Shown here: positions 51,930-52,673 of the stretch, piece after piece
How the letters are laid out: each line of letters begins with the position of its first letter
Position numbering within the stretch: position 1 is the first letter of the stretch
Source: Escherichia phage vB_EcoM_ESCO50
Direction: 5' to 3' (one strand)
Sequence record: OM386664.1
Length of the DNA stretch: 64,000 nucleotides
Notes under the pieces: generated by a model
The model's database searches: none
The model's input: the letters and a program-made list of their open reading frames with translations, nothing else
What the model was told of the DNA's origin: nothing
Program-made: the position numbers and the translations under genes

Positions 51930-52012
51930 TGGCATGGGACGGAGGAGTTGAACCCCTTTGAAACGGTGTTGGAAGCCGTTGCTCATGCCTTAGAGTCTTA
52001 ACATCGTCCCAT
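51930..52012 (-). tRNA. tRNA-like gene, tentative Trp (anticodon CCA); D-region unusually long
   Basis: Perfect 7-bp acceptor and good T-arm; hairpin with loop uu-CCA-ac; but ~26 nt between anticodon arm and acceptor. Confidence 0.4.
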
Positions 52013-52155
52013 ACTATAATTCGAAGCTTACCGTATTATCTCAACACTGTAAAGCCCCTTCTCAGATTATTTACATGTTCTGGAAAACATGAGATACAGA
52101 CCACCTCCCTACAGGAAGACCCGCTTAGGTCGTCTAAGTAATCTGCTAACTAAAT

Positions 52156-52237
52156 TGGTCGAGGCGGCAGGACTCGAACCCGCATACTCCACTTACTCGG
52201 TTAACGTCTGTTTAGAAGACAGATGAGATACGCCCCG
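52156..52237 (-). tRNA. tRNA-like gene, tentative Arg (anticodon UCU); non-canonical arm spacing
   Basis: Acceptor (one G-U) and T-arm are clear; perfect hairpin tctgt-cttctaa-acaga; spacing leaves no room for a normal D-arm. Confidence 0.35.
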
Positions 52238-52485
52238 TAATTATCTTTAAAGACTCTCTTAGAAAGCCCTTAAAGATGCCCACCTTATTAATCATACCGT
52301 GGGCTAGTACGCCAAATTCTTTGATGAGGGATTGGAAGACCTCACTGGTGTTTAGCCTATCAAGCTACTGCCAGAAAAACATTGTCGTTTGCATTTATTT
52401 TAAATTTGCAAAATAGACGCTACGCAACGAAAACTAAGGGTACTATAAAGTGGTCACATCATTATTCTGCTACACTTCCATTAAA

Positions 52486-52625
52486 TTATCTTTGTAGATA
52501 AGCTACCCAGACTTGCTTAAGGTCTGTAGCGATGTGACTTTTTGGGTTTAAATCTAGAATTTACCCTTTCACCCTTTGTGGTCGCATACTCACAGGTAAG
52601 CTTAATAACTTATCTACAAAGATAA
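52486..52625. ncRNA. Candidate structured ncRNA: perfect 17-bp terminal inverted repeat enclosing ~106 nt with internal hairpins
   Basis: 52486-52502 ttatctttgtagataag is the exact reverse complement of 52609-52625; interior has hairpin cagac/gtctg and others; no T-loop. Confidence 0.3.
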
Positions 52626-52673
52626 TTACCAGACCGTTGTTTATCATCTTAACTAGATATCTCATAAAGTGTT

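What the first reader, a model, noticed from the sequence alone, without database searches (positions are those of the whole stretch)
51930..52237. Two tRNA-like genes with clear acceptor and T-arms but aberrant internal spacing
Both 51930-52012 and 52156-52237 have 7-bp acceptor helices and good T-arms. The first carries a hairpin with loop uu-CCA-ac but ~26 nt where a 16-19-nt D-arm is expected. The second has a perfect hairpin with loop cu-UCU-aa but only 7 nt between it and the acceptor, and 23 nt between it and the T-arm. These could be degenerate tRNAs, tRNA-like decoys, or unusual functional tRNAs.
Basis: seen in the sequence. Interest (0 to 1): 0.45.

Follow-up and report, generated by a model that had tools for sequence, protein, structure and literature searches.

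The report
Two conserved, misshapen phage tRNA genes
Both flagged elements are real, evolutionarily conserved but structurally abnormal tRNA genes in a Felix O1-like phage; one, which looks like an arginine tRNA, has no D-arm in the normal position and is found in many unrelated phages.

Summary
The window is the tRNA island of a Felix O1-like coliphage, and every tRNA there is on the minus strand.

**E2 (52237..52156, minus strand)**
- It belongs to a phage-restricted family: 45 distinct sequences from at least six phage groups.
- Acceptor, anticodon and T stems covary strongly. The anticodon loop is invariant CUUCUAA (UCU; CCU in one member).
- A 7-nt connector replaces the D-arm. A conserved 20–28-nt segment follows the anticodon arm.
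- Sister phages carry an ordinary tRNA-Arg(UCU) in the same genomic slot.
- AGA is this phage's commonest Arg codon, and no canonical tRNA-Arg is present.

**E1 (52012..51930, minus strand)**
- It is confined to Ounavirinae and also covaries.
- Its anticodon is CCA with G73. It has a 10-nt connector before a 3-bp D stem, and its anticodon loop is closed by a mismatch.
- It is the only Trp tRNA candidate in the set.

**Interpretation.** They are most likely working AGA/AGG and UGG decoders. Charging and expression are untested. Pseudogene and tmRNA-domain readings are rejected.

**Side finding.** Just upstream of E2 lies a widespread tmRNA-like tag module encoding AN[D/E]xx[Y/F/L]LAVA, followed by two pseudoknots, with no recognisable tRNA-like domain.

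The parts
52156..52237 (-). E2: a non-canonical tRNA-Arg(UCU)-like gene. It has a 7-bp acceptor stem, a 7-nt connector UAUCUCA in place of the D-arm, a 5-bp anticodon stem with loop CUUCUAA, a 23-nt post-anticodon segment, a canonical T arm, discriminator A and an encoded CCA.
   Evidence: Sequence. Rfam tRNA hit of 33.4 bits with the D-arm deleted and a 20-nt insert. Family alignment A1 and covariation. Annotated 'tRNA-OTHER Nd_NNN' or 'tRNA' in phages REP8 and VpaE1_ev035.
52214..52216 (-). E2 anticodon UCU (RNA positions 22–24), which reads AGA/AGG.
   Evidence: The loop is CUUCUAA in 41 of 42 aligned family members and CUCCUAA (CCU, also Arg) in one. All 5 pairs of the stem covary.
52184..52206 (-). 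E2 post-anticodon segment CGUUAACCGAGUAAGUGGAGUAU. It contains a D-loop-like AGUAA-N-UGGA, and GAGUA and GGA are invariant. It may form a small hairpin, YCG/YGG.
   Evidence: Near-invariant across the family, in three length classes of 20, 23 and 28 nt. The hairpin shows only one-sided changes. Its role as a relocated D-loop is inference.
51930..52012 (-). E1: a non-canonical tRNA-Trp(CCA)-like gene. It has a 7-bp acceptor stem (A1-U72), a 10-nt connector GAUGUUAAGA, a 3-bp D stem with the 8-nt loop UAAGGCAU, a 5-bp anticodon stem with a 9-nt loop (equivalent to a 7-nt loop closed by C31.A39), a 4-bp T stem plus an A.C mismatch, G73 and an encoded CCA.
   Evidence: Sequence. Alignment A2 and covariation. 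Not called by ARAGORN or the Rfam tRNA model.
51970..51972 (-). E1 anticodon CCA (RNA positions 41–43), which reads UGG.
   Evidence: UCCAA is invariant in all 18 distinct copies with flanks. 4 of the 5 stem pairs covary.

Best explanation
E1 and E2 are two genuine, selectively maintained tRNA genes with non-canonical bodies. They are probably co-transcribed with the 15 ordinary tRNAs of the phage's minus-strand tRNA island and matured like them, by RNase P at the 5' end, with the CCA already encoded.

E2 belongs to a phage-specific family that keeps the parts used by EF-Tu and the ribosome: a 7/5 acceptor–T helix, a normal T loop, and a 5-bp anticodon stem with C32-U33-UCU-A37-A38. It has no D-arm after U8-A9. 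Instead, a conserved segment containing GAGUA...GGA lies 3' of the anticodon arm. I infer that this segment supplies the elbow contacts (G18/G19-like) and the A20-like ArgRS determinant. E2 most likely reads AGA/AGG as arginine. AGA is the phage's commonest Arg codon and a rare codon in the host.

E1 is the island's tryptophan tRNA (CCA, G73, A1-U72). It has 8 extra nucleotides between the acceptor and a 3-bp D stem.

Shown: conservation, covariation, anticodon invariance, genomic slot equivalence and codon demand. Inferred: transcription, processing, the amino acid charged, use on the ribosome, and why the odd bodies are kept. Escape from host enzymes that recognise the tRNA body is a possible reason.
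For: Context and structure
- The window is a Felixounavirus tRNA island. Every T-loop motif in it belongs to a called tRNA, E1 or E2, and each is followed by CCA.
- E2 has 45 distinct family members. On the 42 aligned, 6 of 7 acceptor pairs, 5 of 5 anticodon-stem pairs and 4 of 5 T-stem pairs change on both sides, with 98.4% of cells paired. RNAalifold gives the same fold.
- The E2 discriminator is a purine in 37 of 42 members, and CCA is encoded in 27 of 42.

Distribution of E2
- It occurs in unrelated phage groups: Felixounavirus, Sugarlandvirus, Justusliebigvirus phi92, Asteriusvirus PBECO4 and Mydovirus KB57, with partial BLAST matches in Streptomyces and Vibrio phages. In all, 262 GenBank phage records match.
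- A scan of 185,579 species genomes found it in only 3 contigs, all from metagenome-assembled genomes; two of these have other tRNA genes within 2 kb of E2, as in a phage tRNA island.
- A search that did not fix the anticodon recovered only UCU and CCU members.

Slot equivalence and codon demand
- In Ounavirinae, the slot about 206–241 nt after the neighbouring tag module holds either E2 or a canonical tRNA-Arg(UCU).
- About 117 records carry E2 and 145 carry the canonical allele, out of about 265 records matching this region.
- The window has no canonical tRNA-Arg or tRNA-Trp. AGA makes up 41.5% of Arg codons, at 17.2 per 1000 codons.
- The Felix O1 genome paper noted that a tRNA for AGA 'might have been expected' but was missing (PMC3185647). 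Felix O1 does carry unannotated E2 and E1.

E1
- 8 of 19 pairs change on both sides, including D stem CUC/GAG <-> CAC/GUG and anticodon stem AACGG/CCGUU <-> GUAAG/CUUAC <-> GUAGG/CCUAC.
- A full 25-tRNA Felixounavirus island lacks only Asp and Trp, and E1 sits inside that island.
Against: - There are no expression, end-mapping, modification or aminoacylation data.
- No D-arm-less tRNA is known to work with bacterial ArgRS, EF-Tu and ribosomes (established knowledge). The library search found such tRNAs described only in metazoan mitochondria.
- The main E. coli ArgRS determinant, A20, normally sits in the D loop, which E2 lacks. Its proposed substitute, the GGA motif, never varies and so cannot be tested by covariation.
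- The window's E2 carries G3:U70 with A73, G2:C71 and G4:C69. This is the AlaRS identity set (established knowledge), so some alanine charging cannot be excluded.
- E1 fails both tRNA detectors. Its anticodon stem is closed by a mismatch, giving an effective 9-nt loop.
- Part of the apparent invariance of the E2 connector and loop was imposed by the search patterns. The BLAST hits and the pattern were not so constrained.
Confidence: 0.65

Rival explanations
1. Non-translational tRNA mimics. E2, and perhaps E1, present an authentic anticodon arm and acceptor/T helix as a decoy or inhibitor. The target would be a host factor that acts on tRNA-Arg(UCU) or tRNA-Trp, such as an anticodon nuclease, a modification enzyme or a defence sensor. 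They would not deliver amino acids.
For: The anticodon loop is identical to that of a normal tRNA-Arg(UCU), and the body is abnormal. Phage tRNA islands are known to counter tRNA-targeting defences (PMC10264068 and PMC11464382, listed). The family is restricted to phages.
Against: Closely related phages carry a fully canonical tRNA-Arg(UCU) in the same slot, which argues for functional equivalence. The phage uses AGA heavily and has no other AGA decoder. Acceptor sequences drift freely but always stay paired, with a purine discriminator and CCA, as expected for a charged tRNA.
Confidence: 0.18
2. Recoding or mischarged tRNAs. E2 would be charged with a non-cognate amino acid: alanine through G3:U70 in the Felix O1 lineage, or serine through the extra arm. 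E1, with its altered D region, would read UGA as Trp in the manner of a Hirsh-type suppressor.
For: The window's E2 has G2:C71, G3:U70, G4:C69 and A73. The A20-bearing D loop is missing. E1's changes lie in the D region, the same region where the classical Hirsh mutation of E. coli tRNA-Trp lies (established knowledge). 10 of 43 long ORFs in the window end in TGA.
Against: G3:U70 occurs in only 8 of 42 family members, so it is not a conserved feature. AGA is the phage's main Arg codon, so systematic AGA-to-Ala or AGA-to-Ser decoding would damage its own proteome. The extra arm is only 3 bp, including G.U pairs, unlike Ser variable arms. There is no evidence for readthrough genes.
Confidence: 0.08
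3. E2 is the alanine-accepting tRNA-like domain of a phage tmRNA, whose tag-coding part is the module lying immediately upstream (52436..52278).
For: A tmRNA-like tag frame and two pseudoknots end about 40 nt upstream of E2. E2 in this lineage has G3:U70, A73 and CCA and lacks a D stem, as tmRNA tRNA-like domains do.
Against: E2 has a full, covarying anticodon arm, which tmRNA domains lack. G3:U70 is not conserved (8 of 42). E2 occurs in five other phage groups without the module. The module occurs in hundreds of phages and prophages without E2. In sister Ounavirinae the same position holds an ordinary tRNA-Arg(UCU). RNase P would be expected to separate the two.
Confidence: 0.04
4. Decaying tRNA pseudogenes with no function.
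For: Standard tRNA finders miss them. The Felix O1 literature lists other 'pseudo-tRNAs' in the island.
Against: There are dozens of compensatory double substitutions, together with invariant loops, across phage families that share little else. Conservation is 84–88% between unrelated phage groups.
Confidence: 0.03

Closest known systems
Canonical phage tRNA-Arg(UCU), for example the allele in Shigella phage Sf13, Felixounavirus HY02-like contigs and lambdoid prophages
   Same: Same anticodon loop CUUCUAA, same T-loop type, purine discriminator and encoded CCA. It sits in the same genomic slot in sister phages and presumably does the same job of reading AGA.
   Different: E2 has no D stem-loop between position 9 and the anticodon stem. 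It carries a conserved 20–28-nt segment after the anticodon arm instead of a 5-nt variable loop. Apart from the anticodon loop and the T loop, the MAFFT alignment shows hardly any shared positions.
Metazoan mitochondrial D-arm-lacking tRNA-Ser(AGY/AGN)
   Same: The D-arm is replaced by a short connector, and the anticodon (GCU or UCU) reads AGN codons. These are the only well-known natural tRNAs without a D-arm (PMC4013460 and PMC4394434, listed).
   Different: The mitochondrial tRNAs have a short variable region, relaxed T loops, and dedicated mitochondrial synthetase and EF-Tu partners. E2 has a perfect bacterial-type T arm and an extra conserved segment, and it must work with the E. coli machinery. 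There is no evolutionary relationship.
Class II (long variable arm) tRNAs and allo-tRNAs (Mukai et al. 2017, PMC5389517)
   Same: There is an extra stem-loop between the anticodon and T arms. Allo-tRNAs are also non-canonical tRNAs found partly in phages and metagenomes.
   Different: Class II tRNAs keep the D-arm. Allo-tRNAs are defined by 8/4 or 9/3 acceptor/T helices, whereas E2 is 7/5. The extra hairpin of E2 is only 3 bp.
E. coli tRNA-Trp(CCA), compared with E1
   Same: Anticodon loop of the CUCCAAA type, G73 and A1-U72, which are TrpRS identity elements (established knowledge), plus a normal T loop.
   Different: E1 has a 10-nt connector instead of the usual 2 nt before the D stem, a 3-bp D stem, a C31.A39 (or C.C) mismatch and an A.C mismatch at the base of the T stem.
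tmRNA (ssrA), compared with the neighbouring tag module, not with E1 or E2
   Same: A start-less Ala-initiated 10-codon frame (AN[D/E]xx[Y/F/L]LAVA, against E. coli ANDENYALAA). The stop codon sits in a hairpin loop, and H-type pseudoknots follow.
   Different: No tRNA-like domain with G3:U70 and CCA is found. The module is not recognised by ARAGORN or by the Rfam tmRNA models (best 15–22 bits).

Membership tests
tRNA (Rfam RF00005 / canonical cloverleaf) | 7-bp acceptor stem stacked on a 5-bp T stem, with a GTTCRANYC-type T loop | tested here: met
   E2 has a 7/5 helix with T loop UUCGAGU, and all pairs covary or are kept. E1 has 7 bp plus 4 bp and an A.C mismatch, with T loop UUCAACU.
tRNA (Rfam RF00005 / canonical cloverleaf) | D stem-loop between positions 9 and 26 | tested here: not met
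   E2 has only the 7 nt UAUCUCA between the acceptor and anticodon stems, and the covariance model deletes the D-arm. E1 has a 3-bp D stem with a GG-containing loop, but it lies behind a 10-nt connector.
tRNA (Rfam RF00005 / canonical cloverleaf) | 5-bp anticodon stem and a 7-nt loop with U33 | tested here: met
   E2 meets it fully: 5 of 5 pairs covary and the loop is CUUCUAA. E1 has a 5-bp covarying stem, but its loop is effectively 9 nt, or 7 nt closed by C.A or C.C.
tRNA (Rfam RF00005 / canonical cloverleaf) | Score at or above the family threshold; detection by tRNA finders | tested here: inconclusive
   E2 scores 33.4 bits against a gathering score of 29, but only with permissive filters. 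It was missed in the gathering-mode run and by ARAGORN. E1 gets no tRNA hit at E<=10 and no ARAGORN call.
tRNA-Arg (E. coli ArgRS identity set) | C35, U36/G36 and a purine at position 73 | tested here: met
   The anticodon is UCU in 41 of 42 members and CCU in 1. The discriminator is G in 21, A in 16 and U in 5.
tRNA-Arg (E. coli ArgRS identity set) | A20 in the D loop | not testable with these tools
   There is no D loop. An invariant GGA, resembling G18-G19-A20, lies in the post-anticodon segment. Whether ArgRS reads it needs biochemistry.
tRNA-Trp (bacterial TrpRS identity set) | Anticodon CCA, G73 and A1-U72 | tested here: met
   CCA and G73 are present in all E1 copies. The 1:72 pair is A-U in 8, G.U in 2 and G-C in 1 of the 11 distinct sequences.
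tmRNA tRNA-like domain | Conserved G3:U70 alanine identity, no anticodon arm, and covalent or paired linkage to a tag-coding domain | tested here: not met
   G3:U70 is present in only 8 of 42 members. E2 has a covarying anticodon arm. E2 and the tag module occur independently of each other.
Allo-tRNA (8/4 or 9/3 tRNAs) | Acceptor stem of 8–9 bp with a T stem of 3–4 bp | tested here: not met
   E2 has 7 + 5 bp with covariation in both helices.
Y RNA / YrlA-type tRNA mimics; tymovirus-type tRNA-like structures | Match to the curated covariance models | tested here: not met
   There is no Y-RNA-type hit. Tymo_tRNA-like scores only 13.7 bits against a gathering score of 40 on E1, with E=4.5.

The most novel reading that the evidence does not exclude
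E2 is a working elongator tRNA that the unmodified E. coli machinery (ArgRS, EF-Tu, ribosome) accepts despite having no D-arm. The D-loop functions (elbow contacts and A20) would be supplied from a segment relocated to the 3' side of the anticodon arm. Phages would keep and exchange this body plan, partly through adjacent HNH homing endonuclease genes, because it escapes host nucleases or sensors that recognise the normal tRNA-Arg body. E1 would be a second case of the same strategy, for Trp.
Probability: 0.3. Interest if true: 0.8.

Novelty: new variant of a known kind. Interest (0 to 1): 0.6.

Why it matters
- If E2 decodes AGA, it would be the first natural tRNA outside animal mitochondria that works without a conventional D-arm. 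It does so in phages of E. coli and Salmonella, where every partner enzyme can be tested directly.
- It would show how much of the tRNA core bacterial ArgRS, EF-Tu, RNase P, modification enzymes and the ribosome actually need.
- It would offer a natural scaffold for orthogonal tRNA design.
- It would explain why Felix O1-like phages appeared to lack decoders for their commonest Arg codon and for Trp.
- These genes are unannotated in most of roughly 260 GenBank phage records, so tRNA repertoires and codon-compensation analyses for these phages are systematically incomplete.
- The neighbouring tag module suggests that many enterobacterial phages also carry a tmRNA-related RNA that has apparently not been described.

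Tried and rejected
1. **E2 as an Ala-accepting tmRNA domain linked to the upstream tag module.** This was suggested by G3:U70 with A73 and by weak Rfam tmRNA hits. I rejected it because G3:U70 is not conserved, E2 has a covarying anticodon arm, and the two elements occur independently.
2. **A shifted cloverleaf.** I tried reading the UCU hairpin as the D-arm and the small hairpin as the anticodon arm. I rejected this because the UCU hairpin has the 5-bp/7-nt geometry, U33 and full covariation, whereas the small hairpin has 3 bp and a 6-nt loop.
3. **A long-range D-like stem in E2.** I considered CUC (positions 11–13) pairing with either GAG of the post-anticodon segment. All of these bases are invariant, and one subfamily lacks the second GAG, so the idea can be neither supported nor excluded.
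4. **ARAGORN with lowered thresholds and intron mode.** It produced only noise: 75 'tRNAs' and 17 'tmRNAs'.
5. **Full-length RNAduplex of the tag module against E. coli ssrA.** It gave meaningless whole-molecule duplexes. I replaced it with an exact-complement scan.
6. **Literature searches.** I searched for phage D-arm-less or non-canonical tRNAs, for Felixounavirus tRNA-like elements, and for phage tmRNA-like RNAs. Nothing relevant was found in the searchable library. Absence there is not proof of novelty.
7. **Y RNA, tymovirus-like structures and tRNA-Sec.** There were no hits, or only sub-threshold ones.
8. **A tmRNA tRNA-like partner elsewhere.** A whole-window Rfam search in E-value mode found none.
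Full report
**What is there**

The window matches Felixounavirus (Felix O1-like) phages at up to 99.9% identity. Positions 49.3–53.3 kb form a tRNA island in which ARAGORN tRNAs, all on the minus strand. The two flagged elements must therefore be read on the minus strand.

- E1 (52012..51930): AUGGGAC GAUGUUAAGA CUC UAAGGCAU GAG C AACGG CUUCCAACA CCGUU UCAAA GGGG UUCAACU CCUC C GUCCCAU G CCA.
- E2 (52237..52156): CGGGGCG UAUCUCA UCUGU CUUCUAA ACAGA CGUUAA CCG AGUAAG UGG AGUAU GCGGG UUCGAGU CCUGC CGCCUCG A CCA.

Neither element is called by ARAGORN. The Rfam tRNA model reaches 33.4 bits on E2 (threshold 29), but only by deleting the D-arm and inserting 20 nt. That hit appears only with permissive filters. 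E1 gets no tRNA hit. Every T-loop motif in the island belongs to a called tRNA, E1 or E2, and each is followed by CCA. E1 and E2 are thus the 16th and 17th tRNA-like genes of the island.

**E2 is a member of a widespread, phage-restricted family**

BLAST finds E2 in 262 phage records. About 117 of these are Felix-like, at 90% identity or more. The rest match at 84–88% in unrelated groups: Sugarlandvirus, Justusliebigvirus phi92, Asteriusvirus jumbo phages and Mydovirus, with partial matches in Streptomyces and Vibrio phages. It is almost never annotated. The exceptions are 'tRNA-OTHER Nd_NNN' or 'tRNA' in a few records.

Pattern scans of IMG/VR raised the set to 45 distinct sequences. On 42 aligned members:
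- 98.4% of base-pair cells are paired, against 70.5% in shuffles and 34–51% when partners are slid.
- 15 of 20 pairs keep pairing through changes on both sides: 6 of 7 in the acceptor stem, 5 of 5 in the anticodon stem and 4 of 5 in the T stem.
- RNAalifold predicts the same structure independently.

The anticodon loop is CUUCUAA in 41 members and CUCCUAA in one, so the anticodon is UCU or CCU, both arginine AGR decoders. The connector is GUA(U/C)CUCA in every member. The post-anticodon segment comes in three length classes, and GAGUA and GGA within it are invariant. The discriminator is a purine in 37 of 42 members, and CCA is encoded in 27 of 42.

One caveat applies. Two of the scans required the connector and loop sequences, which inflates their apparent invariance. 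The BLAST hits and the scan did not fix them, and those searches found the C10 and CCU variants but no other anticodon.

A scan of one genome per species for 185,579 species returned only three true copies. All were on contigs from metagenome-assembled genomes; two of these have other tRNA genes within 2 kb of E2, as in a phage tRNA island. The family is effectively viral.

**E2 stands in for a canonical tRNA-Arg(UCU)**

In Ounavirinae, the slot roughly 206–241 nt downstream of the neighbouring tag module, between tRNA-Ile and E1/tRNA-Ser(UGA), holds one of two genes. It holds either E2 or an ordinary 77-nt tRNA-Arg(UCU). Apart from the anticodon loop and the T loop, the MAFFT alignment shows hardly any shared positions between the two. 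About 117 records carry E2 and 145 carry the canonical allele, out of about 265 records matching this region. This fits an either/or distribution, but I did not check it record by record.

The window's phage has no canonical tRNA-Arg. Yet AGA is its commonest Arg codon: 250 of 603 Arg codons, or 17.2 per 1000 codons, with AGG at 4.3 per 1000. AGA is a rare codon in E. coli (established knowledge). The Felix O1 genome paper lists Arg[AGA] among codons over-represented relative to the host and remarks that a tRNA for it 'might have been expected' (PMC3185647). Felix O1 itself carries unannotated E2 and E1 between its tRNA-Ile and tRNA-Leu genes.

**E1**

E1 is found in 235 records, all Ounavirinae: Felixouna-, Moogle- and Suspvirus, plus Pectobacterium phages at about 76% identity. 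Diversity is lower, with 11 distinct sequences, but the fold is supported:
- 99.5% of cells are paired, and 8 of 19 pairs change on both sides.
- D stem CUC/GAG <-> CAC/GUG.
- Anticodon stem AACGG/CCGUU <-> GUAAG/CUUAC <-> GUAGG/CCUAC.
- T stem G-C <-> U-A.
- Acceptor A-U <-> G.U <-> G-C.

The abnormality is an invariant 10–12-nt connector, GAUGUUAAGA(AU), before a 3-bp D stem whose loop carries GG. The anticodon loop is also closed by C.A or C.C. UCCAA, G73 and CCA are invariant.

A complete 25-tRNA Felixounavirus island lacks only Asp and Trp by ARAGORN, and other relatives carry Asp. E1 lies inside that island. E1 is therefore the only Trp tRNA candidate in an otherwise near-complete set.

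**Most likely mechanism**

Several things are shown: both RNAs are under selection for tRNA-like helices, both have fixed anticodons, E2 is interchangeable in evolution with a normal tRNA-Arg(UCU), and the codon demand exists.

The rest is inferred.
- They are probably co-transcribed with the island. No terminator-like site lies between them, and only one chance-level promoter match was found.
- They would be cut by RNase P, charged by host ArgRS and TrpRS, and used to read AGA/AGG and UGG.
- For E2, I infer that the invariant AGUAA-N-UGGA stretch after the anticodon arm replaces the D loop. GG would contact the T loop, and the following A would act as A20 for ArgRS. This cannot be tested by covariation because the bases never vary.
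- Why the odd body is kept is unknown. Evasion of host factors that recognise the tRNA body is plausible but untested.

In Felix O1 and in Sugarland, an HNH endonuclease gene starts 9–15 nt after E2. This may help explain how E2 spreads between phage families.

**Rivals**

- Pseudogenes are excluded by the covariation.
- A tmRNA tRNA-like domain is disfavoured. G3:U70 occurs in only 8 of 42 members, a full anticodon arm is present, and E2 and the tag module occur independently.
- A decoy or inhibitor role remains possible, at about 0.18, but it fits poorly with allelic replacement by a canonical tRNA.
- Mischarging remains a caveat for this lineage, because its acceptor stem carries the AlaRS identity set. 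It would harm a phage that uses AGA this heavily.

**Comparison with known systems**

E2 works like a tRNA-Arg(UCU), but it fails a defining cloverleaf feature, the D-arm. It is not an allo-tRNA, because its helices are 7/5. It is not a class II tRNA, because it has no D-arm and its extra hairpin is only 3 bp. It is unrelated to mitochondrial D-arm-less tRNA-Ser, the only well-known natural precedent.

E1 resembles E. coli tRNA-Trp in its identity elements, but not in its D region.

I found no description of either element in the searchable literature. Some annotation pipelines have flagged E2 as an undetermined tRNA. I therefore rate the finding as a new variant of a known kind.

**Seen in passing: a tmRNA-like tag module next to E2**

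Window 52436..52278 (minus strand), ending about 40 nt before E2, is a roughly 160-nt module.

*Distribution.* It is found at 72–82% identity in hundreds of unrelated phages: Kuttervirus, Klebsiella siphophages, and about 110-kb non-mobilisable IncFIB plasmids of Klebsiella and E. coli (my inference is that these are SSU5-like phage-plasmids). It also occurs in lambdoid prophages between Q and the lysis genes, and in 320 of 5,426 E. coli genomes.

*The coding frame.* It carries a 10-codon frame that starts at GCA, at window 52392..52360, encoding ANDNVFLAVA*.
- Across 25 distinct versions, the peptide is AN[D/E]xx[Y/F/L]LAVA. E. coli ssrA encodes ANDENYALAA.
- Among pairs differing by one nucleotide, 13 of 17 differences fall at third codon positions. 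The synonymous:non-synonymous ratio is 11:6 in this frame and 3:12 in each of the other two.
- In 58 of 72 contexts an in-frame stop lies 6–18 codons upstream with no start codon in between.
- One plasmid lineage has an in-frame UAG.

*Structure.* The stop codon sits in a hairpin loop, and two covarying H-type pseudoknots follow.

*What is missing.* No tRNA-like domain with G3:U70 and CCA was found beside the module in any context examined. Neither ARAGORN nor Rfam recognises a tmRNA.

*Neighbours.* In Ounavirinae it is bounded by tRNAs. In lambdoid prophages it is bounded by repeated long hairpins that may be processing sites. It often lies next to tRNA-Arg(UCU).

*A weak lead.* Its conserved 5' motif (U)AGUUUUCGU(C) is, in every lineage, the longest complement to host ssrA, always within the host tag codons. 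Statistically this is weak.

How a tag template could work without its own tRNA-like domain is unexplained. This module may deserve its own study.

Noticed in passing
window 52278-52436 (minus strand); tag frame 52392..52360: A tmRNA-like module sits just 5' of E2. It has a start-less 10-codon frame, GCA AAC GAC AAU GUU UUU CUG GCA GUA GCU UGA (ANDNVFLAVA*). Variation in the frame is codon-like across hundreds of unrelated phages, prophages and plasmids of about 110 kb (probably phage-plasmids), giving AN[D/E]xx[Y/F/L]LAVA. The stop codon lies in a hairpin loop and two covarying pseudoknots follow. No recognisable tRNA-like domain was found, and ARAGORN and Rfam do not call a tmRNA.
   Followed up: partly
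window 52427-52436 (minus strand), and the same motif in 26 related loci: The module's conserved 5' motif (U)AGUUUUCGU(C) is always the longest Watson-Crick complement to E. coli ssrA, matching ssrA 96–106 GACGAAAACUA inside the host tag codons. 10-mers of this kind are reached by only 1–6% of shuffles, but 7–8-mers are common. This is a weak lead for an RNA–RNA interaction.
   Followed up: partly
L004 4125-4215; also L192, L226, L228, L278 (contexts of the tag module in lambdoid prophages): Repeated long hairpins flank the tag module on both sides: CAGGUAAGRGCAUUG ... variable insert, sometimes with a GGUUCGA T-arm ... CAGUGCUCUUUCC. They may be tRNA-like or RNase III-type processing signals. 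Felix O1 has a related hairpin between the module and E2.
   Followed up: partly
L194, L197, L205, L211, L219, L224, L226, L278, L287, L293: In 10 of 20 non-Ounavirinae loci checked, the tag module lies within a few hundred nt of a canonical tRNA-Arg(UCU), alongside a tRNA with anticodon CAU. AGA-codon stalling is a classical trigger of ssrA tagging in E. coli (my own knowledge), so the co-location may be meaningful.
   Followed up: no
L321 649-996 (Felix O1) and L007 1598-2107 (Klebsiella phage Sugarland): An HNH endonuclease gene starts 9–15 nt downstream of E2 in two unrelated phages. The Pfam HNH hit is 16.7 bits, below the cut-off, and the HNH_3 hit is 24.8 bits, at the cut-off. Homing could explain why E2 is 84–88% identical across phage families and alternates with a canonical allele.
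   Followed up: partly
window 52484-52502 and 52609-52628: There is a 19-nt inverted repeat, AATTATCTTTGTAGATAAG. It lies where related phages (REP8, VpaE1, Felix O1) carry extra tRNA genes (Ile, Met/Thr, Lys, Asp), so the window's phage appears to have lost that block. The TTGACA -35 box, which in REP8 and Felix O1 precedes TATAGT upstream of the tag module, is also missing here.
   Followed up: no
window 52159-52237: The Rfam gathering-mode scan of the whole window missed E2, although E2 scores 33.4 bits against a threshold of 29. The hit appears only with the more permissive filters. Routine annotation would therefore miss this family for technical reasons.
   Followed up: yes
L006 2756-2822 and 5234-5322; L008 2136-2211; L010 1063-1137 and 2739-2808: Related phages hold other odd tRNA-like genes. 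Det7 has an acceptor/D/T element without an anticodon arm upstream of its tag module, and an annotated pseudo-tRNA with a '15 bp intron'. ARAGORN reports 'tRNA-???' with two-base anticodons in phi92 and KB57.
   Followed up: no
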